Assembly: GCA_964372915.1 (NCBI GenBank)
Contig: CAYJRN010000003.1
Coordinates: 16,376 to 80,375 of the forward strand
Origin: an uncultured Planctomycetales bacterium
GTDB taxonomy: Bacteria; Omnitrophota; Gorgyraeia; Zapsychrales; JAHFFX01
Length of the DNA stretch: 64,000 nt
Reading direction: 5' to 3'
The notes under the pieces were generated by a model. It saw nothing but the letters and a program-made list of their open reading frames with translations. It did no database searches and was not told the origin of the DNA. Positions within the stretch are counted from its first letter, which is position 1; each line of letters starts with the position of its first letter. The translations under genes and the position numbers were made by a program. Of this stretch, positions 7,755 through 60,941 are shown in pieces.

Positions 7755-8456
7755 GTGGGTCAAAAGGTCAGTCCGTTAATCATCAGAATCGGCTATATCA
7801 AGAATTGGAGAAGCCTTTGGTATGCCGATAAAAAAGAATTCGCCAAGAATATCAAGGAAGATTATAAAATTCGTAAATACATCAAAAAAAGATTTGAGCA
7901 GGCGGCGATTTCGCTCGTGGTGATTGAGAGATTGGCGGAACAAGTCAAAGTGAAGATTCATTCGGCCAGACCGGGCATCATCATCGGCCGCCGTGGAGCC
8001 GACATCGATAAGTTAAGAACCGAGCTGGGGAATCTCAGCCCTAAAGAGATTTCCATTGATATCGTCGAAATCAAGAATCCGGCCATCGACGCCCAGCTGA
8101 TCGCCCAGAACGTCGCGCTTCAATTAGAGAAGAGGGTGGCGTTTCGCCGCGCGATGAAAAGATCGATTGAACAGGCGATGACCTCGGGCGCCAAAGGCGT
8201 CAAGATCAGTTGCGCGGGGCGTTTGGGCGGCGCGGAAATGTCTCGCCGGGAAACATATAAAGAAGGGAAGCTTCCCTTGCAGACCTTTCGAGCGGATGTG
8301 GACTATGGTTTTGCCGAGGCTTTAACGACGTACGGAATTTTAGGGATCAAGGCTTGGGTCTATAAGGGGGATGTGATCGATGTGCGAGCTCCAGAGCTTC
8401 AATCTGCGCAAACTGCGGAAGATCTCAACAAAATAAAAGCGGCAAAAGGAGAATAA
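7755..8456 (+). CDS. rpsC: 30S ribosomal protein S3
   Basis: MGQKVSP N-terminus and a KH domain. Confidence 0.94.
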   Translation: MGQKVSPLIIRIGYIKNWRSLWYADKKEFAKNIKEDYKIRKYIKKRFEQAAISLVVIERLAEQVKVKIHSARPGIIIGRRGADIDKLRTELGNLSPKEISIDIVEIKNPAIDAQLIAQNVALQLEKRVAFRRAMKRSIEQAMTSGAKGVKISCAGRLGGAEMSRRETYKEGKLPLQTFRADVDYGFAEALTTYGILGIKAWVYKGDVIDVRAPELQSAQTAEDLNKIKAAKGE

Positions 8457-8460
8457 TTCC

Positions 8461-8880
8461 ATGGCGCTTATGCCCAGAAGAGTGAAGTATCGCAAGAGCC
8501 AGCGCGGCAAGAACAGAGGCATTTCGATCCGCGGCAGTACGCTCACCTTCGGTGAATTTGGTTTGAAGGCCATCGAGAATGGGTTCATCAAAAGCAATCA
8601 CATTGAAGCGGCGCGCGTGGTTGTCGCCCGTAAGTCCCGAGGGGCGAGCCGTCTATGGATCAATATTTTTCCCAGTAAGCCGGTTACCATGAAACCGGCG
8701 GAAACCCGTCAGGGAAAGGGAAAAGGAGATTTGGCCTTTTGGGGATCCAATGTCAAGCGCGGCAAGGTTCTTTTTGAAATGTCCGGTGTGCCGGAGGCGT
8801 TCGCGAAACAAATCTTTCGTCTGGTGGCCTTCAAGCTGCCCGTGAGAACCAGATTTATTACCCGGGAAATGGTGTTATAA
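8461..8880 (+). CDS. rplP: 50S ribosomal protein L16
   Basis: MPRRVKYRKSQRG is L16-like. Confidence 0.94.
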   Translation: MALMPRRVKYRKSQRGKNRGISIRGSTLTFGEFGLKAIENGFIKSNHIEAARVVVARKSRGASRLWINIFPSKPVTMKPAETRQGKGKGDLAFWGSNVKRGKVLFEMSGVPEAFAKQIFRLVAFKLPVRTRFITREMVL

Positions 8881-51888: not shown

Positions 51889-53916
51889 GTGGACCGATTC
51901 ATCCTGGAGAGTAAGTTCAAACCCGTCGCTGAGCAGATCAAGGCGCTTCAACCGCTGGCTCACAATATCCAACGGGGTGTTAAGTCGCAGGTTCTTCTGG
52001 GGGTGACCGGCAGCGGCAAGACCTTTACCCTTGCCAATGTGATTGAAAAGCTCAATCGGCCCACCCTCGTCATTTCCCACAACAAAACCCTCGCCGCCCA
52101 GCTCTACAGCGAATTTAAGGGATTCTTTCCGCAGAATGCCGTCGAGTATTTTGTCAGTTACTACGATTATTACCAGCCGGAAGCCTACATTCCCCAAACC
52201 GATGTTTATATAGAGAAGGATTCTTCGATCAACGATCGTTTGGATCGCCTGCGCCTGGCCGCCACGACGTCCTTAATGTCCCGACGCGATTGTTTAATCG
52301 TTGCCAGCGTTTCCTGCATTTACAACTTGGGCGATCCGGCAGATTACAGAGAAGCCTTGCTCTTTCTTAAGAAAGAGCAGACCATTGATCGGGACGAGGT
52401 GTTGGCGAAGCTCATCGATATTCAGTATGAACGCAATGATTATGAATTCACGCGCGGAAAAGTGCGTGTGCGCGGGGACGTGGTGGAAGTTTTTCCGGCC
52501 TACCGGCAGGACGCGGTAAGGATTGAATTAAACGGCGACGCAATCGAGCGCCTCTCACAGATTGATCCCATTACGGCAAACGTCATTCAAGAGTTAGAGC
52601 AGGTGGCTATTTATCCGGCCAAACATTTCATCGTTCCGGAGCCGCGTCTTCAGGCGGCGCTTAAGGAGATCGAAGAGGAGTTGAAGGCGAGGGTGGCGGA
52701 GCTCAATGCCCAGGGCAAACTTCTGGAATCCCAGCGGCTCAATTCCCGCACGCGTTATGATATGGAAATGCTCAAAGAAATGGGATTTTGCCACGGCATT
52801 GAAAATTATTCGCGGGTCCTCTGTGGCCGTCCCGCCGGCTCGCGGCCATATTGTCTTTTGGATTATTTTCCGGAAGATTTTGTCGTACTCATTGATGAAT
52901 CGCACGTGACGGTCCCGCAATTAAACGGAATGTACGAGGGGGATCGCGCGCGCAAAGAAATGCTCGTCGAGTATGGGTTTCGTCTGCCGTCGTGTCTGGA
53001 TAACCGGCCGCTCAAGTTCAAAGAATTCGAGCAGCTCGTTAAGCAAAGGATCTATGTCTCAGCCACCCCGGGGCCTTTTGAGAAAAAAGAATCCGGAGGC
53101 TGTATCATCGAACAGATCATTCGCCCCACCGGAATTGTCGATCCGCCGATTGAGGTGAGGCAAAGCCAAGGACAAATTGAGGATTTGTTGGTTGAAATCA
53201 AGAAACGGGTCAAAGCCAACGAGCGCGTACTCGTAACCACTTTGACCAAACGCATGTCGGAAGATTTGAGTGAATATTTACAAGAGCAAGGGATCAAAGT
53301 CAAATATCTTCATTCCGACATCGAGACCATTGACCGGGCGAAGATCTTGCAGGATTTGCGCCTGCGAAAATTCGATTGCCTGGTGGGGGTCAACTTATTA
53401 AGAGAAGGCCTAGACCTGCCGGAGGTATCGCTGGTTGCCATTCTGGACGCGGATAAAGAAGGGTTCTTGCGTTCTCATACATCGCTTATTCAAACCTCGG
53501 GTCGTGCCGCGCGCAACATTCACGGCCTGGTCGTTATGTATGCCGATAAAATCACCTCGGCCATGCGCCTGACCATCAGTGAGTGCGAACGCCGTCGGAA
53601 AATTCAGATCGCATTTAACAAAGAGCACGGCATCACGCCGCGCTCGATTGAGAAGGCGATCAAACAGGGGATTGAGGAATGGGCGGATAGTGAAGAGTTG
53701 GTTATGGAGGCGACCGGCCAATCTCCGGAAGAATTTGCTGTCGCTTCGATTGTCGCCGATTTGGAGCGGGAAATGGAACTGGCCGCCCGCAACCTGCAAT
53801 TCGAGAAAGCGGCGCTCATTCGTGATAAGATTAAGGAAATTGAGGGAGGAGATTTTGCTCTTAGCGATCGACATAGGCAACACCGCGATCTGCCTCGCGG
53901 TTCTAAAAAACGCTAG
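51889..53916 (+). CDS. uvrB: Excinuclease ABC subunit B
   Basis: Helicase motifs GVTGSGKT and a UvrB C-terminal coiled coil. GTG start. Confidence 0.93.
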   Translation: MDRFILESKFKPVAEQIKALQPLAHNIQRGVKSQVLLGVTGSGKTFTLANVIEKLNRPTLVISHNKTLAAQLYSEFKGFFPQNAVEYFVSYYDYYQPEAYIPQTDVYIEKDSSINDRLDRLRLAATTSLMSRRDCLIVASVSCIYNLGDPADYREALLFLKKEQTIDRDEVLAKLIDIQYERNDYEFTRGKVRVRGDVVEVFPAYRQDAVRIELNGDAIERLSQIDPITANVIQELEQVAIYPAKHFIVPEPRLQAALKEIEEELKARVAELNAQGKLLESQRLNSRTRYDMEMLKEMGFCHGIENYSRVLCGRPAGSRPYCLLDYFPEDFVVLIDESHVTVPQLNGMYEGDRARKEMLVEYGFRLPSCLDNRPLKFKEFEQLVKQRIYVSATPGPFEKKESGGCIIEQIIRPTGIVDPPIEVRQSQGQIEDLLVEIKKRVKANERVLVTTLTKRMSEDLSEYLQEQGIKVKYLHSDIETIDRAKILQDLRLRKFDCLVGVNLLREGLDLPEVSLVAILDADKEGFLRSHTSLIQTSGRAARNIHGLVVMYADKITSAMRLTISECERRRKIQIAFNKEHGITPRSIEKAIKQGIEEWADSEELVMEATGQSPEEFAVASIVADLEREMELAARNLQFEKAALIRDKIKEIEGGDFALSDRHRQHRDLPRGSKKR

Positions 53917-54610
53917 AACACTTCAAGTCTGGCGCATCGACACCGTGCAGGAAAAATTTCTTTTATCGGTTCGATTAAATCCGATTTTAAAGGTGATCAA
54001 AAAAAAATATCCGCGAATTCAAAAGACGGTCATTTGCAGTGTCGTGCCGAATGTTTTAAAGATTTTGCAGCCGATCGTTAGGGCCGTCCCCGTGCGGGGA
54101 CGGCCCCTTATCATCGGCCAAGACATCAAGGTGCCGATTGTCAACCGTTATAATCATCGGCAAATCGGGCAGGATCGTTTGGTGTGCGCCTACGCCGCCA
54201 AAATCCTTTACGGACAACCGGCGATTGTGATCGATTTAGGAACCGCAATCACCTTTGATGTCGTGTCGGTTAAAGGCGAATATTTGGGTGGAGCGATTGT
54301 CCCAGGGATTCGGCTTTCAGCCGAATCCCTATACAAGAAAACCGCACTCCTTCCCAAAATAAAAATCAAAGGACCAGGGGATGTGATTGGTAAGAATACT
54401 GAAGCGAGTATCTTGAGCGGAATTTTTTATGGGTACGGAGCGTTGTGTGCCGGCATGATCGAGCTCGTGTCGAAAAAACTCGGCATCCGCCCCAAAGTAA
54501 TTTTGACCGGAGGCCATTCGCTCTTGATGAAAAAATACATCCCCGCCAAAATCCATGCGGTCGAGCCGGATTTGGTTTTGAAGGGGTTGGAGTTGTTGAG
54601 CCGCTTTTGA
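53855..54610 (+). CDS. coaX: Type III pantothenate kinase
   Basis: LLAIDIGNT N-terminus. A TTG start with a GGAGGA ribosome-binding site is proposed. It overlaps the uvrB tail. Confidence 0.75.
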   Translation: MLLAIDIGNTAICLAVLKNARTLQVWRIDTVQEKFLLSVRLNPILKVIKKKYPRIQKTVICSVVPNVLKILQPIVRAVPVRGRPLIIGQDIKVPIVNRYNHRQIGQDRLVCAYAAKILYGQPAIVIDLGTAITFDVVSVKGEYLGGAIVPGIRLSAESLYKKTALLPKIKIKGPGDVIGKNTEASILSGIFYGYGALCAGMIELVSKKLGIRPKVILTGGHSLLMKKYIPAKIHAVEPDLVLKGLELLSRF

Positions 54611-54615
54611 AGGCA

Positions 54616-54644
54616 TTGACAAAACAAGTTATAACTTGTATACT
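54616..54644 (+). promoter_or_regulatory. higBA promoter with palindromic operator
   Basis: TTGACA, a 17-nt spacer, then TATACT. The spacer contains the perfect 14-bp palindrome caagttataacttg. Confidence 0.5.
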
Positions 54645-54665
54645 TATATTGCAGAAAAAGGTCGA

Positions 54666-55016
54666 ATGTTAAAGTCAATTTATTTTTTTGTTGATGAGCG
54701 GGGCGATAACCCTGTCAAAGATTTTATTAAGAAATTGCCTTTTAAAGATCAAGCCAAAATTAGGGCTTATCTTGATGAGTTGAAAAAGCAAGGCCACAAT
54801 CTGCGCAGGCCCATGGCCGATTATCTGGGCGAAGGGATATATGAGCTAAGACCCCGCGATAACCGTATCTTTTATTTCTTCTTTTTACGCGACCACGCCG
54901 TTTTATTGCACGCTATAAAGAAAAAGACAGATAAAATTTCTTCGGGTGATTTGAACCTATGTCTTAAGAGAAAAAGGCAGGTGGAGGAGGAAAGAAACAT
55001 TGAGAACTTGTATTGA
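54666..55016 (+). CDS. higB: Gp49-like (HigB/RelE superfamily) toxin
   Basis: DUF891 pattern: YELRP...RIFYFF...LLHAIKKKT. Confidence 0.8.
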   Translation: MLKSIYFFVDERGDNPVKDFIKKLPFKDQAKIRAYLDELKKQGHNLRRPMADYLGEGIYELRPRDNRIFYFFFLRDHAVLLHAIKKKTDKISSGDLNLCLKRKRQVEEERNIENLY

Positions 55017-55030
55017 TAAGGAGGCCCCCA

Positions 55031-55357
55031 ATGGCAAATGTCCGTTTAGAAAATATAGATAGTTATTTTCAGGAGAAATTGAAAGACAAGAAATTTCGCC
55101 GTTTATATGAAATTGAACGCGTCAAAGTCACTCTGGCTCAAAAAATAGCCGAGATGCGTCAAGAAAAACATCTTAACCAGAAAGAATTGGCCGCGCGGCT
55201 GGGTGTTTCTCAGCAGTTTATCTCTCAGATCGAAACGGGAGAAGGGCGTAACCTAACTCTTGATACCCTGACCCGTATCGCCGAATCTCTGGGGCATAAG
55301 GTGCGAATCTCCTTTCCTAAAAGCATTGGCCGCGGCGCACACCTCGAAATAGCTTAA
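55031..55357 (+). CDS. higA: XRE-family HTH antitoxin
   Basis: QKELAARLGVSQQFISQIE is a helix-turn-helix. AAGGAGG ribosome-binding site. Confidence 0.8.
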   Translation: MANVRLENIDSYFQEKLKDKKFRRLYEIERVKVTLAQKIAEMRQEKHLNQKELAARLGVSQQFISQIETGEGRNLTLDTLTRIAESLGHKVRISFPKSIGRGAHLEIA

Positions 55358-55376
55358 TGGATATGTTCAGGATTCT

Positions 55377-55450
55377 TTCCGCCAAAATTCCCAAGGTCGA
55401 GCCGGATTTGGTTTTTAGGGGGATGGGGTTGGTGAGTAGAAAGCATAAAT
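55377..55450 (+). repeat. Diverged duplicate of the coaX 3' end
   Basis: gccaaaat..ggtcgagccggatttggtt matches 54543-54610. It translates as IPKVEPDLVFRGMGLVS, against IHAVEPDLVLKGLELLS in coaX. Confidence 0.65.
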
Positions 55451-55470
55451 AACGCGTAGGAGTTAAGCCT

Positions 55471-56271
55471 ATGTCCACAGAACCTCAATTTATTTCACCA
55501 GATCAATGGCATGATTTTTGTCGCTATCTGCGCAAAGAAAACAGGTACGTTTTGAATAAGAAATGGGATAGGTTTATTGAAACGATTTTATTTACAGCCA
55601 AGAAGCGGGAACATATTTTAATGAAGGGAGGGGTATTATATCGTGCGCGCATAGGCAGTAATGAACGGGAATATGAAGTTGAAGATGAAAATAAGAAAAG
55701 CCATTGGGGAATCGATATCAGTCCATTGCATCCACAGGAAATAGACGCCCCTCCTGATGGAAAGGCGTTAGAAGGAAGAATAAATCCGAAAGGAATCTCG
55801 TATCTTTATTTAGCAAATGACATAAAAACCGCCATATCAGAAGTCAGGCCTTGGTTGAATCAGAGCGTCACAGTGGGATGGTTTGGGTTAACTAGAGATT
55901 TAAGAGTCGTTGATGCATCTAAAGACAAGCATAGTCGTCATATTTTGTCAGAAGAAGAGATTGAGGAACCGTCAGAAAAATGGGAACCGTTTGTCTGGAG
56001 AGATATAAATAATTCTTTCTCTATGCCGGTTAACGTTGGTGAAGAGCATAATTATTATGTTCCAACTCAATATCTATCAGAATATTTTAAGAATGCCGGA
56101 TATGATGGAATTATTTACAAAAGCTCTTTAACTAAAGATGGATATAATATTGCTTTATTTGATCCAAAGGTTGCGCGTTTAAAAGGGGCATGGTTATATG
56201 ATGTTAAATCTATAGATTATGCTTATATAGAGAGCGCAAATCATTATGTGTGTAAAGAAGACCAAGAATGA
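55471..56271 (+). CDS. RES-domain protein (putative NAD-targeting toxin)
   Basis: LYRAR, GRINPKGISYLYLA...EV and DGIIYKSS...NIALFDP cover the R, E and S motifs. Confidence 0.7.
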   Translation: MSTEPQFISPDQWHDFCRYLRKENRYVLNKKWDRFIETILFTAKKREHILMKGGVLYRARIGSNEREYEVEDENKKSHWGIDISPLHPQEIDAPPDGKALEGRINPKGISYLYLANDIKTAISEVRPWLNQSVTVGWFGLTRDLRVVDASKDKHSRHILSEEEIEEPSEKWEPFVWRDINNSFSMPVNVGEEHNYYVPTQYLSEYFKNAGYDGIIYKSSLTKDGYNIALFDPKVARLKGAWLYDVKSIDYAYIESANHYVCKEDQE

Positions 56272-56381
56272 AATTTTAGAAATCGCGCCAGGCACAAATA
56301 AAAGGGGCAGGTTGTTTGCTTCCCCGGAATTTCTGGTAACGTCAATGGACGAACAAGCGGTTCTGCTGTATACTTAAAATC

Positions 56382-56675
56382 ATGAGCGAGCTGGATAAAA
56401 TTAAACAAACTTTAAGGCAGAATAAACCCGCGCTGACGAAAGAATTTAAAGTAAAGCAGCTGGGCGTGTTTGGTTCTTTCGTGCGAGGAAAGCAGAAGAA
56501 AAACAGCGACGTGGATATTCTGGTAGAATTTAGCCGCACTCCGGGCCTTTTTGATTTCCTTAAAATGGAAAACCGCCTGAGCGCGATATTGAAAAAACGC
56601 GTGGATTTGGTGATGAAGGGGTCATTAAAACCGGCGATCGGCAAAAATATCATGCACGAGGTTGTGTACGTATGA
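56382..56675 (+). CDS. Minimal nucleotidyltransferase (MntA-like antitoxin)
   Basis: GVFGSFVRGK...DVDILVEF motif. Confidence 0.8.
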   Translation: MSELDKIKQTLRQNKPALTKEFKVKQLGVFGSFVRGKQKKNSDVDILVEFSRTPGLFDFLKMENRLSAILKKRVDLVMKGSLKPAIGKNIMHEVVYV

Positions 56676-57010
56676 TCCGTGAATATAAGGATTACCTGGT
56701 CGATATTATTGATGCGATTGAGAAGGCGGAATCTTTTGTCAAAGGAATGAATTTTGAATCTTTCGAAAAAGATGCCAAAACTACGTTTGCGGTCATACGC
56801 GCTTTCGAGGTCATGGGAGAAGCCGTCAAGAAAATCCCTTCCAGCGTTCGCAATAAGCATAAGAATCTTCCGTGGAAAGAAATGGCCGGCATGAGAGATA
56901 AGCTCATCCACGAATACTTTGGCATTAAACCCCGTGTTGTCTGGAAAACCATCAAGCGAGACCTGCCCAAAATAAAACCCTACTTGCAATCTATCTTAGA
57001 TAGTCTTTAA
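56672..57010 (+). CDS. HepT/DUF86 HEPN toxin
   Basis: RDKLIHEY, the Rx4-6H motif. Confidence 0.75.
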   Translation: MIREYKDYLVDIIDAIEKAESFVKGMNFESFEKDAKTTFAVIRAFEVMGEAVKKIPSSVRNKHKNLPWKEMAGMRDKLIHEYFGIKPRVVWKTIKRDLPKIKPYLQSILDSL

Positions 57011-57041
57011 TCAAGATTTTGGATTGACCAGAAGGTCTGCA

Positions 57042-57137
57042 ATGATCAAGGTTCGTTTAGAAAAAATAGATGGTTATGTTCAGCAGAAGCTCAAACAGAG
57101 ACCATTCCCAGACACATACCGTAACCCAAATGCCTAA
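57042..57137 (+). pseudogene. Remnant of a higA-like 5' end
   Basis: MIKVRLEKIDGYVQQKLKQRPF matches higA MANVRLENIDSYFQEKLKDKKF; a stop follows. Confidence 0.5.
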
Positions 57138-58149
57138 ACCCCTCACCAAACCCAACGATTACAAGTCTCTCGTCCGAAAAGTTTCGCAAGAGCTTTCCGA
57201 GCTGGAGTTCTTTCTCAAGCGACGGACCGCAGAAGCTTACTGGAAAGTCGGGCGGTATATTCACGAGCATCTTTTGGAACACAAGGACAGGGCGGAGCAC
57301 GGTACAAATTTTTTTATAAGATTAGCCGAAGATGTTGACTACGACGTTTCCATTTTGCAGCGCTGTGTGAAATTCTACCGCGTTTACCCAATTTCCGCGG
57401 CGCCGCGGAAATTGACCTGGGAGCACTACAAGAGCCTGATCACCGTTAAGGACGAACAGGAGAGAAAGAAGCTTGAGCAAAAAGTTCTTCGTCATGATTG
57501 GAACACAAAAGAACTCCGGGAATATTTAAACACCAGGCGCGAGCTCACCGCGCCCGAGAACGACGACAAACCCGTCGCGCAACTCAAATTCACCTTTGGT
57601 AGGTTGCACGCCTACCAGATTGTCCAGGCCAACAAACCGCTTGCGAAAGAGAGTCCGCTGGTTTTGGATCTGGGGTTTCGTCTGCAGTATCTCATCCCTA
57701 AAAATGCCCCGCGCTTTAAGGAAAATGACACGGTTGAACTTCTCTTAAAAGAGGGAGAGATCTCCAGCGTCAAGAAAATCGAGTCTTCCAAAGACGAGCT
57801 CTTCACCTATCAAGCCCAGGTCGATAAAATCATCGATGGGGACACGCTGTTAACCTCGTTTGATTTGCATCTCAACGTTTCCATCAGCCAAAAACTGCGG
57901 CTGCGGGGCATTGACTGCCCGGAGATGGACACCGAGGAGGGAAGACGGGCCAAGCGCTTTGTCGAGGCCCGTCTGAAGGGCTGTGCTTTTATCATCGTTA
58001 AAACCATCAAAGACCGTTCGGATAAATTTGACCGCTACCTCGCCGATATTTTTTACCTGCCCGGCGCCACCGATCCATCGGTCGTTGCCCAAAAGGGAAC
58101 TTACCTTAATCAAGAGCTTCTCAACGAGCATTTGGCGGTGAGGTATTGA
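57130..58149 (+). CDS. YhcG_N (DUF1016 N-terminal) domain fused to a staphylococcal-nuclease (SNase/thermonuclease) domain
   Basis: AYWKVGRYIHEH...LTWEHYKSLITVKDEQER in the N-terminal half. DGDTL...RLRGIDCPE in the C-terminal half. Confidence 0.6.
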   Translation: MPKPLTKPNDYKSLVRKVSQELSELEFFLKRRTAEAYWKVGRYIHEHLLEHKDRAEHGTNFFIRLAEDVDYDVSILQRCVKFYRVYPISAAPRKLTWEHYKSLITVKDEQERKKLEQKVLRHDWNTKELREYLNTRRELTAPENDDKPVAQLKFTFGRLHAYQIVQANKPLAKESPLVLDLGFRLQYLIPKNAPRFKENDTVELLLKEGEISSVKKIESSKDELFTYQAQVDKIIDGDTLLTSFDLHLNVSISQKLRLRGIDCPEMDTEEGRRAKRFVEARLKGCAFIIVKTIKDRSDKFDRYLADIFYLPGATDPSVVAQKGTYLNQELLNEHLAVRY

Positions 58150-58211
58150 TGATTTTATAGTTTTTAGAATGCGGATGAGGTGTTATACTAAAATTCAAGG
58201 AGGGCGAGTTT

Positions 58212-58397
58212 ATGACGGCTAAACAAGAAGTCCGGTCTTTGCTTCAAAAATTACCTAAGGACTGCACCATTGAGGACATTCAGTACCATCTTTACGTCAT
58301 TGAAAAAATTCATAGAGGTCTTCAGCGGGCAAAGCGAGAGGGAGGCATTTCTCAACAGCAAGTTGAAAAACGGTTGACCAAATGGCTCATCAAGTAA
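58212..58397 (+). CDS. Addiction-module antitoxin (ParD/RelB-type small protein)
   Basis: A 61-aa protein whose gene overlaps the start of the decayed parE. Confidence 0.55.
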   Translation: MTAKQEVRSLLQKLPKDCTIEDIQYHLYVIEKIHRGLQRAKREGGISQQQVEKRLTKWLIK

Positions 58398-58706
58398 TAT
58401 GGTCTCCCGAAGCCGTTGAGGACGTGGAATCCATCGCTCAGTACATAAGCCGTGATTCGTAATTTTATGCCCGGGCTACGCTCTCCAAAATCCTCGATTT
58501 CTCTTATAGTATATAGTATCGCCCAATTCCCGTATATGGGTCGCATAGTTCCTGAGTGTAATGATAAGAACATCAGAGAACGATTGGTATATAGTTATCG
58601 ATTGGTGTACAAGATTGAACGTACAAAAATTCTTATTGTTGCGGTCATTCACGATAAACGATTATTTTATTCTGTTTCCGAACGCTTTATCCCTCCCCAA
58701 CCTTAA
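58382..58706 (+). pseudogene. ParE/RelE-family toxin gene, decayed
   Basis: N-terminus MAHQVIWSPEAVEDVESIAQYISRDS, then an in-frame TAA at 58460. The ParE C-terminus (FPYMGRIVPE...YRLVYKIE) continues in the +1 frame. Confidence 0.65.
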
Positions 58707-58733
58707 CGCCTTCTTTAGCAAAAAAATTATCCC

Positions 58734-58789
58734 TTGACAAAATTTTTTTGGTTTTGTACACTAGCACTCTATCAGAAGCAGTGCTAATT
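58734..58789 (+). promoter_or_regulatory. groESL sigma70 promoter plus CIRCE (HrcA operator)
   Basis: TTGACA, a 17-nt spacer, TACACT. CIRCE is TAGCACTC-N9-CAGTGCTAA. Confidence 0.7.
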
Positions 58790-58863
58790 GAAAATTTTGC
58801 TTAAAGATGAGCAAGAATAGTCCAACGGTTCAACTTTTAAAAAATTTAAAAGGAGGTGTTGTA

Positions 58864-59154
58864 GTGGATATCAAACCATTAGCCGATAGAATTGTCGTGA
58901 AGCCTTTGGAGGCGGAAGAAAAGACCAAGGGGGGCATTGTGTTACCGGATACGGCCAAGGAGAAACCCCAAGAAGGAAAAATTGTGGCGGTCGGCAAGGG
59001 CAAGGTTTTGGAGAACGGCCAACTCCAAACTCCGGAGGTGAAGGTCGGGGATCGCGTGTTGTATGGCAAATACAGCGGGACTGAGATTACCACCAAGGAC
59101 GGACAGGAACTTCTTATTATGAAGGAAGAGGATATTTTTGCGGTGGTTAAATAA
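58864..59154 (+). CDS. groES: Co-chaperonin GroES
   Basis: GTG start with an AAGGAGGTG ribosome-binding site. [15 protein letters not shown]-terminus. Confidence 0.88.
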
Positions 59155-59161
59155 ATGAGCA

Positions 59162-59266
59162 GGTAACTTACGGAGTCCGCCTTTGGCGGACGACGTAACT
59201 TACAAGTGCGAATTTACCCAGCACTTATTTTACGACACGGTATTTAAGCCAAAATAAGTGCTGGGT
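59162..59266 (+). repeat. Two adjacent palindromic repeats, copies E and C, in the groES-groEL spacer
   Basis: E is the same element family as copy D; C is the same as hairpin 1 of copies A and B. Confidence 0.65.
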
Positions 59267-59294
59267 TATCTAAAAAAATAATCGGAGGGAATAA

Positions 59295-60941
<1,647 letters not shown>

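What the first reader, a model, noticed from the sequence alone, without database searches (positions are those of the whole stretch)
54611..58706. Compact toxin-antitoxin/defence island inserted between coaX and groESL, marked by a duplicated coaX 3' end
Seven or more addiction or defence-type genes sit in about 4 kb between two housekeeping genes: higB/higA, a RES-domain protein, an MNT/HepT pair, a YhcG_N-SNase nuclease, and parD with a decayed parE. After higA (55377-55450) there is a roughly 74-nt diverged copy of the coaX terminus; both copies encode VEPDLV.KG. That shows the higBA cassette entered at or inside the coaX 3' end. A truncated second higA-like 5' end at 57042 suggests repeated insertion and erosion. 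The island is more AT-rich than its neighbours. The combination of modules may act as one defence locus.
Basis: partly seen in the sequence, partly recalled or inferred. Interest (0 to 1): 0.7.

Follow-up and report, generated by a model that had tools for sequence, protein, structure and literature searches.

The report
Toxin-antitoxin islet between coaX and groES
An uncultured Omnitrophota bacterium has a 4.1-kb patchwork of independent toxin-antitoxin and nuclease genes wedged between two housekeeping genes that are adjacent in all seven relatives checked; leftover gene fragments show it was built in several rounds, which is a clear but ordinary example of how such islets grow.

Summary
The island lies at 54611-~58719, between coaX and the groES promoter. 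It carries higB/higA, a solo long RES protein, MNT/HepT, a DUF1016_N-SNase nuclease, a 61-aa antitoxin-like ORF and a ParE pseudogene.

Both repeats are real. The coaX 3' end (54543-54600) recurs at 55379-55436: 58 nt, 83% identity, about 20 SD above shuffles. The higB-3'/higA-5' junction (55003-55084) recurs at 57014-57095: 82 nt, 74%.

Seven Omnitrophota relatives have coaX followed directly by groES-groEL across a 155-215 nt gap, so the island is a lineage-specific insertion. All modules except the nuclease gene are AT-rich. The RES gene is 89% identical in DNA to one on an integrase-bearing element, whereas coaX has no relative above 61% protein identity.

RES and nuclease homologues sit in unrelated contexts elsewhere, so this is a patchwork and not one co-evolved system. 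"parD" is not supported as a family assignment. No attC sites or integrase were found.

The best mechanism is piecemeal entry anchored in coaX (homology-facilitated illegitimate recombination, or 3'-end displacement), followed by erosion. This is a new member of a known kind, of modest interest.

The parts
53855..54610 (+). coaX (type III pantothenate kinase), the left flanking housekeeping gene. Its last 58 matched bases, 54543-54600, are repeat copy a.
   Evidence: Pfam Pan_kinase 1.2e-53. The gene call in identical contigs gives 251 aa. Closest relatives are <=61% identical, and the named ones are all Candidatus Omnitrophota.
54616..54644 (+). higBA promoter (TTGACA-17-TATACT). A perfect 16-nt palindrome, ACAAGTTATAACTTGT at 54625-54640, lies between the hexamers and is a probable HigA operator.
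   Evidence: Best promoter-like site in the region, 11 of 12 matches. The palindrome was read. Operator function is inferred.
54666..55016 (+). higB-like toxin (Gp49/DUF891, RelE/ParE superfamily), intact.
   Evidence: Pfam PF05973 at 5.6e-19, covering profile positions 1-89 of 90.
55031..55357 (+). higA-like Xre-type HTH antitoxin, intact.
   Evidence: Pfam HTH_3 at 6.9e-15 and HTH_37 at 1.7e-12. The NCBIfam HigA equivalog scores below its cut-off.
55379..55436 (+). Repeat copy a': a displaced or duplicated coaX 3' end. It lies inside a 31-aa ORF, 55357-55452 (MDMFRILSAKIPKVEPDLVFRGMGLVSRKHK*), whose ATG overlaps the higA stop codon.
   Evidence: 58 nt at 83% identity to 54543-54600. Score 68 against 20.5 +/- 2.4 in shuffles. 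tblastn with coaX gives E = 0.002. No extension beyond 58 nt.
55471..56271 (+). Solo long-form RES-domain protein of 266 aa: an N-terminal domain of about 95 aa plus a RES ART-like NAD+-consuming domain. No Xre/DUF2384 antitoxin gene is adjacent.
   Evidence: Pfam RES 1.5e-18. R103, E124 and S218 are invariant in 41 homologues. The AF2 model has pLDDT 90.7, and its best PDB folds are MbcT, ParT and Xre-RES. 89.2% nt identity to a gene on an integrase/TraG element, confined to the ORF. GC3 is 0.30, z = -7.1.
56382..56675 (+). MNT (MntA-like nucleotidyltransferase antitoxin, type VII TA).
   Evidence: Pfam NTP_transf_2 8.2e-16. NCBIfam MntA 6.5e-13, below cut-off. PADLOC PDC-S09 7.8e-30. The GSxxRG...DVD motif was read.
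56672..57010 (+). HepT RNase toxin; its start overlaps the MNT stop by 4 nt (ATGA).
   Evidence: Pfam HepT-like 3.4e-30. The Rx4HxY motif (RDKLIHEY) was read.
57014..57095 (+). Repeat copy b': the fossil of an older higBA cassette, comprising the last 4 codons and stop of higB', the ribosome-binding site, and the first 18 codons of higA'. It lies in a 31-aa ORF, 57042-57137, that overlaps the nuclease start by 8 nt.
   Evidence: 82 nt at 74% identity to 55003-55084. Score 60 against 21.9 +/- 2.4. tblastn with HigA residues 1-26 gives 54%, E = 0.001. It is not part of the nuclease unit, because homologue DNA similarity starts at 57128-57160.
57130..58149 (+). DUF1016_N (YhcG N-terminal domain) fused to a staphylococcal-nuclease (SNase) domain. 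It has native-like composition.
   Evidence: Pfam DUF1016_N 5.3e-15 and SNase 6.8e-5. PADLOC PDC-S02 matches the N-domain only. More than 100 full-length homologues at 45-70% identity, and every source name that gives an organism says Omnitrophota/Omnitrophica. They sit in variable contexts, twice at the edge of a defence or mobile block. GC3 z = +0.8.
58212..58397 (+). 61-aa antitoxin-like ORF, the upstream partner of the ParE pseudogene. It belongs to a large unclassified family of proteins about 62 aa long and is not demonstrably ParD.
   Evidence: No Pfam or NCBIfam hit. No PDB hit with a profile. 1209 cluster representatives at E <= 1e-3. It overlaps the ParE start by 17 nt.
58381..58706 (+). 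ParE/RelE-family toxin pseudogene. It has a nonsense codon at 58459-58461 and a frameshift caused by a 7-nt tandem duplication (TATAGTA x2, 58505-58518).
   Evidence: The fragment matches ParE_toxin profile positions 36-88 of 89. The lesions were read and are also present in the independent contig L006.
58720..58863 (+). Retained groES promoter (TTGACA-17-TACACT, 58734-58762), one CIRCE operator (58761-58787) and the 5' leader. This is the right boundary of the island; the upstream CIRCE seen in relatives is missing.
   Evidence: DNA similarity to the relatives' coaX-groES spacers starts at 58720. CIRCE match; promoter. The relatives' spacers are shown, with a CIRCE scan.
58864..60941 (+). groES (58864-59154) and groEL (59298-60941), the right flanking housekeeping genes.
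   Evidence: Pfam Cpn10 1.1e-34. Gene calls in identical contigs.

Best explanation
The region is a lineage-specific 4.1-kb accretion of independent, separately acquired selfish or defence modules. It sits in the spacer between coaX and the HrcA/CIRCE-controlled groESL promoter of an uncultured Omnitrophota bacterium.

Working parts, inferred from intact domains and motifs:
- A HigB-like mRNA interferase with its HigA repressor/antitoxin. The pair has its own strong promoter, and a 16-nt palindrome that probably serves as operator.
- A solo long-form RES NAD+-consuming enzyme.
- An MntA/HepT type VII pair.
- A stand-alone DUF1016_N-SNase nuclease.
- An orphaned small antitoxin whose ParE toxin has been inactivated by two lesions.

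Assembly history (inferred). The modules came in piecemeal by horizontal transfer, each essentially as a bare ORF or operon. At least one entry used coaX as a homologous anchor, with an illegitimate joint at the other end. This is homology-facilitated illegitimate recombination, the '3'-end displacement' pattern known from Rhs and T6SS effector-immunity arrays. That event supplied a fresh coaX terminus together with higBA. It pushed the old terminus (55379-55436), and everything behind it, downstream. An older higBA copy was overwritten by later arrivals (MNT/HepT and perhaps RES on its left, the nuclease on its right), leaving the 82-nt junction fossil at 57014-57095.

Shown: the gene content, both fossils, the empty site in relatives, the foreign composition, the mobility of RES, and the parE lesions.
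Inferred: the recombination mechanism, the order of arrival, and the activity of each module.
For: - Domain content.
- Both repeats lie far above chance and end sharply.
- Both coaX copies share the lineage-specific VEPDLV, where nearly all relatives have VD.DLV. They are each other's nearest sequence. The donor was therefore this lineage or a very close relative, as anchor-based recombination requires.
- Empty site: seven relatives show uvrB-coaX-groES-groEL synteny. Spacer homology resumes at 58720.
- Composition: the island is 43.0% GC against 49.0%, and the RES GC3 z-score is -7.1.
- RES is 87% identical in protein and 89% in DNA to a gene on an integrase/TraG element, while coaX has no relative above 61%.
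- Similarity of RES and of the nuclease gene to their homologues stops at the ORF ends, and their neighbourhoods differ elsewhere.
- Omnitrophota are reported to have an unusually active mobilome in which RelE/StbE, MntA and HigA1/HigB1 KEGG assignments figure among the cargo shared between chromosomes and co-sampled circular mobile elements in a groundwater metagenome dominated per genome by Omnitrophota (bioRxiv 10.64898/2026.05.20.726742).
- The displacement/HFIR model is described for T6SS and Rhs arrays (PMC5361080).
Against: - No close relative (above 61% coaX identity) exists in the collections searched. No intermediate island states were seen, and neither the polarity of the coaX duplication nor the order of arrivals can be tested.
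- The RES gene, apparently the most recent arrival by composition and identity, sits in the middle and left no coaX fossil of its own. Entry was therefore not always at the coaX end.
- HFIR is rare where it has been measured (PMC5361080).
- No activity of any module was tested.
Confidence: 0.8

Rival explanations
1. In-situ tandem duplication. A unit running from within the coaX 3' end through higBA (54543-55378, 836 nt) was duplicated head to tail by unequal crossing-over or slippage. The interior of the second copy was later replaced by RES-MNT-HepT, and its higA' was truncated by the nuclease gene.
For: The fossils occur in the order a-b-a'-b', which a tandem duplication predicts. The divergences of a/a' (17%) and b/b' (26%) are statistically compatible over such short stretches. 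a and a' are each other's closest sequences.
Against: The spacings differ (836 against 2011 nt). Nothing of higB' or its promoter remains between a' and b'. A precise replacement of about 400 nt by about 1580 nt must therefore be added to the story. A duplicated active TA pair has no obvious advantage.
Confidence: 0.2
2. Site-specific integration. higBA is the remnant of an integrase-borne element that targeted the coaX 3' end and carried a replacement coaX terminus in its attP. The 58-nt repeats would then be attL and attR, with the 21-nt identical core GGTCGAGCCGGATTTGGTTTT as the crossover site.
For: The direct repeats bracket exactly one cassette. The identical core is flanked by diverged arms. 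Integrative elements that restore the 3' end of their target gene are well known (general knowledge). The closest RES homologue sits on an integrase-bearing element.
Against: No integrase or excisionase lies anywhere between uvrB and the genes downstream of groEL. The 'element' would be only 778 nt. Similarity also extends to the left of the core (CCGCCAAAAT), which an attP arm need not share. A 21-nt identical run within an 83%-identical 58-mer is not improbable.
Confidence: 0.08
3. Integron-like cassette array (a CALIN): co-oriented, promoter-poor TA cassettes captured at attC sites.
For: All eight genes are co-oriented, tightly packed and mostly TA modules, as in sedentary chromosomal integrons. 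The gaps between genes are 55-120 nt.
Against: None of the six spacers folds better than shuffled sequence as single-stranded DNA (z from -1.65 to +1.2). There are no shared repeats between the spacers, no Rfam hit and no intI nearby. Two spacers are demonstrably gene fossils, not attC sites.
Confidence: 0.02
4. A single integrated multi-gene defence system, in which RES, MNT/HepT, the nuclease and the TA pairs cooperate.
For: The genes are physically clustered and share one orientation. No strong intrinsic terminators lie inside the island. Two components match PADLOC 'phage defence candidate' families (PDC-S09, PDC-S02).
Against: The components are found apart in every other context examined. 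Their compositions differ. One member is a pseudogene. No PADLOC multi-gene system model matches.
Confidence: 0.05

Closest known systems
Chromosomal toxin-antitoxin / defence islets at intergenic insertion sites
   Same: A compact, co-oriented cluster of type II and type VII TA modules and stand-alone nucleases. It is compositionally foreign, flanked by conserved housekeeping genes, mixes intact and decayed members, and is absent from relatives.
   Different: It is not a shared hotspot. All seven relatives examined have the site empty. No integrase, transposase or tRNA gene lies at the border.
3'-end (C-terminal) displacement arrays of Rhs and T6SS effector-immunity loci, attributed to homology-facilitated illegitimate recombination (Kirchberger et al. 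2017, PMC5361080; Jackson et al. 2009, cited there)
   Same: A conserved upstream gene acts as the anchor. The incoming DNA brings a new 3' end plus cargo, and the old 3' end is shifted downstream as an orphan fragment. Repetition builds an array with fossils.
   Different: Here the anchor is a housekeeping kinase gene (coaX) with no functional link to the cargo. Only one displaced terminus is present, and not all modules entered at the anchor end. The mechanism is inferred, not demonstrated.
HigBA (Gp49-type HigB with HTH_37/Xre HigA), for example the Vibrio cholerae higBA loci
   Same: The toxin gene comes first, the toxin carries a Gp49/RelE-fold domain, the antitoxin is an Xre HTH protein, and the promoter contains a palindrome.
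   Different: The antitoxin scores below the NCBIfam HigA equivalog cut-off and the toxin matches no NCBIfam model. Activity was not tested.
Xre-RES toxin-antitoxin systems (MbcTA, ParST, P. putida Xre-RES)
   Same: RES domain with invariant Arg/Glu/Ser. The predicted fold is closest to MbcT, ParT and RES-Xre structures.
   Different: The protein is 266 aa with an extra conserved N-terminal domain of about 95 aa. No Xre/DUF2384 antitoxin gene is adjacent, here or in the two homologue contexts examined. The family rides on integrative elements and on contigs that IMG/VR classes as viral.
YhcG / DUF1016 nucleases (PADLOC candidate PDC-S02)
   Same: The N-terminal DUF1016_N domain. In two of the three homologue contexts examined the gene sits at the edge of a defence or mobile gene block.
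   Different: The C-terminal PD-(D/E)XK nuclease domain is replaced by a staphylococcal-nuclease domain. The architecture is widespread; every source name that gives an organism says Omnitrophota/Omnitrophica, under 'thermonuclease family protein'.
MntA/HepT type VII toxin-antitoxin
   Same: NTP_transf_2 and HepT domains, the catalytic motifs, and a 4-nt gene overlap.
   Different: Both proteins score below the NCBIfam equivalog cut-offs. Activity was not tested.

Membership tests
HigBA type II TA | Toxin of the Gp49/HigB (RelE/ParE-fold) family | tested here: met
   PF05973 at 5.6e-19 and 68.4 bits (cut-off 23.9), covering profile positions 1-89 of 90.
HigBA type II TA | Xre-type HTH antitoxin encoded immediately downstream of the toxin | tested here: met
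   HTH_3 and HTH_37 above their cut-offs. The gene order is toxin then antitoxin, 14 nt apart.
HigBA type II TA | Meets the curated HigA equivalog (TIGR02607) | tested here: not met
   19.5 bits against a cut-off of 47.7.
HigBA type II TA | Toxicity neutralised by the antitoxin; autoregulation at an operator | not testable with these tools
   Only a 16-nt perfect palindrome inside an 11-of-12 promoter match was seen.
MntA/HepT type VII TA | Minimal nucleotidyltransferase with the GSx(n)DxD motif, next to a HepT with Rx4HxY | tested here: met
   PF01909 at 8.2e-16 and PF01934 at 3.4e-30. The motifs GSFVRG...DVD and RDKLIHEY were read. The genes overlap by 4 nt.
MntA/HepT type VII TA | Meets the NCBIfam equivalog cut-offs (NF047752, NF047751) | tested here: not met
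   48.5 and 40.5 bits against a cut-off of 60 for each.
Xre-RES TA (MbcTA/ParST type) | RES domain with conserved Arg, Glu and Ser and an ART-like fold | tested here: met
   PF08808 at 1.5e-18. R103, E124 and S218 are invariant. Foldseek best hits are 6fkg, 6d0i and 9r35.
Xre-RES TA (MbcTA/ParST type) | Cognate Xre/DUF2384 antitoxin gene directly upstream | tested here: not met
   What lies upstream is the coaX fossil, and before it HigA, which belongs to higB. No such gene lies next to the homologues in L026-L029 either.
YhcG / PDC-S02 | DUF1016_N domain | tested here: met
   PF17761 at 5.3e-15. PDC-S02 models match residues ~30-155 only.
YhcG / PDC-S02 | C-terminal PD-(D/E)XK nuclease domain | tested here: not met
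   The C-terminal half matches SNase (PF00565, 6.8e-5) and thermonuclease models. The PD_DExK hit in PADLOC covers only residues 117-155 at 1.2e-3.
ParDE type II TA | Intact ParE toxin | tested here: not met
   One nonsense codon and a 7-nt duplication causing a frameshift. Full profile coverage is obtained only after repair.
ParDE type II TA | ParD (RHH or PHD-type) antitoxin | tested here: not met
   The 61-aa ORF and 29 relatives match no Pfam, NCBIfam or PDB family.
Integron cassette array (CALIN) | attC hairpin sites between cassettes | tested here: not met
   The spacer folds are no better than shuffles. No inter-spacer repeats were found. IntegronFinder's own model was not available.
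Integrase-borne integrative element | Direct repeats (attL and attR) flanking the element | tested here: inconclusive
   58-nt repeats at 83% identity flank higBA, but they fit other models equally well.
Integrase-borne integrative element | Integrase gene within the element | tested here: not met
   All ORFs between the repeats and across the island are accounted for, and none is a recombinase.
Shared defence-island hotspot | The same core-gene junction is occupied by variable cargo in related genomes | tested here: not met
   All seven relatives have the junction empty. No relative closer than 61% coaX identity was available.

The most novel reading that the evidence does not exclude
TA and defence genes in Omnitrophota might be captured without any dedicated recombinase, by repeated anchor-in-a-core-gene displacement. 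This would be the same process that builds Rhs and T6SS immunity arrays, here acting on a housekeeping gene. Two cargo genes would then be new stand-alone defence effectors that travel as bare ORFs: the antitoxin-less long-form RES protein, and the DUF1016_N-SNase fusion, which is widespread and whose named members are all from Omnitrophota. A smaller variant of this reading is that the 31-aa higA' N-terminal ORF is retained as a mini-antitoxin or a translational coupler for the nuclease gene.
Probability: 0.25. Interest if true: 0.5.

Novelty: new member of a known kind. Interest (0 to 1): 0.3.

Why it matters
The locus is a clean natural record of how a small toxin-antitoxin/defence islet is built in a poorly known, uncultured phylum. 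It offers a defined empty site in relatives, two sequence fossils marking separate entry events, a freshly inactivated toxin with its antitoxin kept, and one cargo gene traceable to an integrative element.

It also flags two widespread but uncharacterised gene families as candidates for stand-alone defence or addiction functions: antitoxin-less long RES proteins and DUF1016_N-SNase fusions. A third family, the ~62-aa antitoxin-like proteins, is absent from Pfam and NCBIfam.

None of this overturns current understanding. It illustrates it.

Tried and rejected
- Integron/attC reading: rejected.
- A single multi-gene defence system: rejected on context and composition.
- Extension of either repeat beyond 58 and 82 nt, including into the higBA promoter: no significant similarity.
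- Polarity of the coaX duplication, tested by comparing both copies with six relatives' coaX termini: uninformative. Both copies are equally distant from the relatives (26-34 of 54) and closest to each other.
- Close relatives of the host: the GTDB species-representative scan and the JGI metagenome scan gave nothing closer than 57%. The protein database gave a maximum of 61%.
- Nucleotide matches of the island to plasmids or phages: none. HigB in viral contigs: none.
- RES against PDB by sequence: no hit. A fold search was needed.
- The 61-aa ORF against Pfam, NCBIfam and PDB, including a 30-member profile: nothing.

Full report
**What is there**

ORF listing and profile searches give this order on the + strand:

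| Feature | Coordinates | Notes |
|---|---|---|
| uvrB | to 53916 | |
| coaX | 53855-54610 | |
| higB-like Gp49 toxin | 54666-55016 | |
| higA-like Xre HTH antitoxin | 55031-55357 | |
| RES-domain protein | 55471-56271 | 266 aa |
| MNT nucleotidyltransferase | 56382-56675 | |
| HepT | 56672-57010 | overlaps MNT by 4 nt |
| DUF1016_N + SNase protein | 57130-58149 | |
| 61-aa ORF | 58212-58397 | |
| ParE fragment | to 58706 | |
| groES | 58864-59154 | |
| groEL | 59298-60941 | |

The named coaX homologues identify the organism as an uncultured Candidatus Omnitrophota bacterium. Contigs assembled independently from three public runs are 100% identical over the parts of the region each covers, and one of them (L006) spans the whole island. 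The structure is therefore not an assembly artefact.

**The two repeats**

- *coaX terminus.* Positions 54543-54600 recur at 55379-55436: 58 nt, 83% identity, no gaps. The local alignment score is 68, against 20.5 +/- 2.4 for shuffles.
- *higB-end/higA-start junction.* Positions 55003-55084 recur at 57014-57095: 82 nt, 74% identity. The score is 60, against 21.9 +/- 2.4.
- *Sharp ends.* Neither repeat extends significantly on either side.
- *Frame of the coaX copy.* It keeps the coaX reading frame through to a stop codon (...AKIPKVEPDLVFRGMGLVSRKHK*). It lies in a 31-aa ORF whose ATG overlaps the higA stop.
- *Content of the higBA copy.* It keeps the last four codons and the stop of a former higB, a ribosome-binding site, and 18 codons of a former higA. 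It lies in a 31-aa ORF that overlaps the nuclease start by 8 nt.
- *Origin of the coaX copies.* Both carry VEPDLV, where nearly all relatives have VD.DLV. They are closer to each other (43/54) than to any relative's coaX terminus (26-34/54). The duplication therefore arose within this lineage, or from a very close relative.

**The island is an insertion**

Seven distinct Omnitrophota relatives (coaX 57-60% identical) have uvrB-coaX-groES-groEL with only a 155-215 nt spacer. These are L010, L017, L018/L019, L020, L043-L048 and L049.

That spacer carries a TTGACA promoter overlapped by a CIRCE operator. In most relatives a second CIRCE lies upstream. In the window, homology to these spacers resumes at 58720. 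Only the promoter (58734-58762) and one CIRCE (58761-58787) remain.

The island therefore spans 54611 to about 58719, and the upstream CIRCE was lost.

**Foreignness and mobility**

- The island is 43.0% GC, against 49.0% for the rest of the window.
- GC3 z-scores against 40 background genes are -7.1 (RES), -6.0 (ParE fragment), -3.3 to -3.8 (higB, higA and the 61-aa ORF), -0.8 (MNT) and -2.2 (HepT).
- The DUF1016_N-SNase gene is native-like, at +0.8.
- The RES protein has a homologue at 87% identity. It lies on an element with a tyrosine integrase, a TraG-like coupling protein and HTH_17 genes.
- DNA identity to that homologue is 89.2% and is confined to 55485-56261, inside the ORF. coaX, by contrast, has nothing above 61%.
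- Another RES homologue lies in a defence island with an MmeI-like methylase and Gabija-like genes. More distant ones are on contigs that IMG/VR classes as viral.
- DUF1016_N-SNase has more than 100 full-length homologues at 45-70% identity, and every source name that gives an organism says Omnitrophota/Omnitrophica. One sits between leuS and comEA/comEC. Another sits beside a type I restriction enzyme, HipA and HIRAN genes. A third sits beside ParB, methylase and PIN genes. Similarity again starts at the start codon.
- No two modules of this island were seen together elsewhere. This is a patchwork, not a conserved system.

**State of the modules**

- *HigB, HigA, MNT and HepT.* Each covers its profile end to end and keeps its catalytic motifs.
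- *higBA promoter.* It is the best promoter-like site in the region (11 of 12 matches). It contains a perfect 16-nt palindrome, a likely HigA operator.
- *RES protein.* It belongs to a long-form subfamily of 250-320 aa with a conserved N-terminal domain and invariant R103, E124 and S218. A confident model (pLDDT 90.7) is closest to MbcT, ParT and Xre-RES toxins. No Xre/DUF2384 antitoxin gene accompanies it, here or in the two homologue contexts examined.
- *Nuclease.* It pairs the YhcG N-domain with an SNase domain in place of the usual PD-(D/E)XK domain. PADLOC's PDC-S02 models match only the N-domain.
- *ParE.* It is a pseudogene with one nonsense codon (58459-58461) and a 7-nt tandem duplication (58505-58518). 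After repair it covers the whole ParE_toxin profile.
- *ParE's upstream partner.* The 61-aa ORF is intact. It belongs to a large family (1209 cluster representatives) with no Pfam, NCBIfam or PDB counterpart. Calling it ParD is unsupported.

**Mechanism**

- *Integron array.* Excluded for practical purposes. The spacers do not fold better than shuffled sequence, share no repeats, and give no Rfam hit. No integrase was found.
- *Integrase-mediated insertion.* In this model the 58-nt repeats would be attL and attR. It is possible but weak. The bracketed segment is only 778 nt and holds nothing but higBA, and there is no recombinase.
- *In-situ tandem duplication of coaX-3'/higBA.* This fits the a-b-a'-b' order. 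It needs an extra, precise replacement of higB' by 1.6 kb of other genes.
- *Best fit: homology-facilitated illegitimate recombination.* DNA from a close relative, carrying a coaX 3' part plus higBA, pairs in coaX and joins illegitimately just upstream of the resident terminus. The old terminus and the older cargo are pushed downstream. The same model is proposed for Rhs C-terminal displacement and for Vibrio T6SS immunity arrays (PMC5361080). The reverse polarity is equally allowed by the data: the RES-side DNA could have arrived with a donor coaX end, anchored in groES.
- *The older higBA fossil.* It shows that later arrivals (MNT/HepT on its left, the nuclease on its right) overwrote an earlier cassette. 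Entry was therefore not always at the coaX end.
- *Background.* Omnitrophota are reported to have a very active mobilome. In that groundwater study, RelE/StbE, MntA and HigA1/HigB1 assignments are among the cargo shared between chromosomes and co-sampled circular mobile elements (bioRxiv 10.64898/2026.05.20.726742).

**Verdict**

The insertion and the 'repeated insertion and erosion' readings are supported. The specific claim that higBA itself entered within coaX is plausible but unproven. The 'one defence locus' idea is not supported.

This is a well-documented but ordinary TA/defence islet: a new member of a known kind. Its minor points of interest are:
- the coaX-anchored displacement signature;
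- the antitoxin-less long RES family;
- the DUF1016_N-SNase fusion;
- the unclassified 62-aa antitoxin-like family.

Noticed in passing
window 58707-58863, compared with L010 2051-2265, L017 1918-2088, L018 8778-8938, L020 8766-8950 and L049 1336-1539: Relatives usually carry two CIRCE (HrcA) operators ahead of groES, one upstream of the -35 hexamer and one overlapping the -10. This genome keeps only the promoter-proximal one, because the island's right edge removed the other. All island genes point into groESL, and no strong terminator lies between them and it. Heat-shock regulation may therefore be altered.
   Followed up: partly
window 55357-55452 and 57042-57137: Both fossils persist as 31-aa ORFs with start codons. 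The coaX' ORF starts on the higA stop (TAATG). The higA' ORF has its own ribosome-binding site and overlaps the DUF1016_N-SNase start by 8 nt, so translational coupling or a mini-antitoxin role is conceivable. The substitution pattern (7 non-synonymous and 3 synonymous codons out of 18) gives no sign of selection.
   Followed up: partly
window 54625-54640: A perfect 16-nt palindrome, ACAAGTTATAACTTGT, sits between the -35 and -10 hexamers of the higBA promoter. It is a likely HigA operator.
   Followed up: no
L026/L027/L028 3462-7961, next to RES at 8001-8828: The closest RES homologue lies directly after a 1499-aa protein combining HSP70/MreB-like and trypsin-like domains. The element also carries a PLD nuclease, a SLFN/AlbA_2 gene, TraG and an integrase. 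This is an unusual pairing of candidate defence genes that was not examined further.
   Followed up: no
window 57130-58149; L021-L025: DUF1016_N-SNase is a large family, and every source name that gives an organism says Omnitrophota/Omnitrophica. It has host-like composition. The gene is co-oriented with, and directly upstream of, housekeeping genes, and in two of the three contexts examined it lies at the edge of a defence or mobile block. No function is known.
   Followed up: partly
window 58212-58397: The 61-aa ORF belongs to a family of proteins about 62 aa long (consensus ...LPDDCxLEDIQYHLYVLEKI...W). The family has 1209 50%-identity cluster representatives but no Pfam, NCBIfam or PDB counterpart. 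It appears to be an uncatalogued ParE/RelE-associated antitoxin family.
   Followed up: partly
window 58505-58518: The parE frameshift is a clean 7-nt tandem duplication (TATAGTA TATAGTA). Together with the single nonsense codon at 58459-58461, it suggests recent inactivation of the toxin while the antitoxin gene stays intact.
   Followed up: yes
window 59216-59266: A perfect 16-nt inverted repeat (ACCCAGCACTTATTTT / AAAATAAGTGCTGGGT, 19 nt apart) lies in the groES-groEL spacer. It may be a processing, attenuation or stabilising hairpin. Its only Rfam match, miR-430, is a chance-level hit.
   Followed up: no
window 56246-56377: A 43-aa ORF overlaps the RES 3' end and fills the RES-MNT spacer. 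It has no family match. It could be a small partner of RES or simply noise.
   Followed up: no
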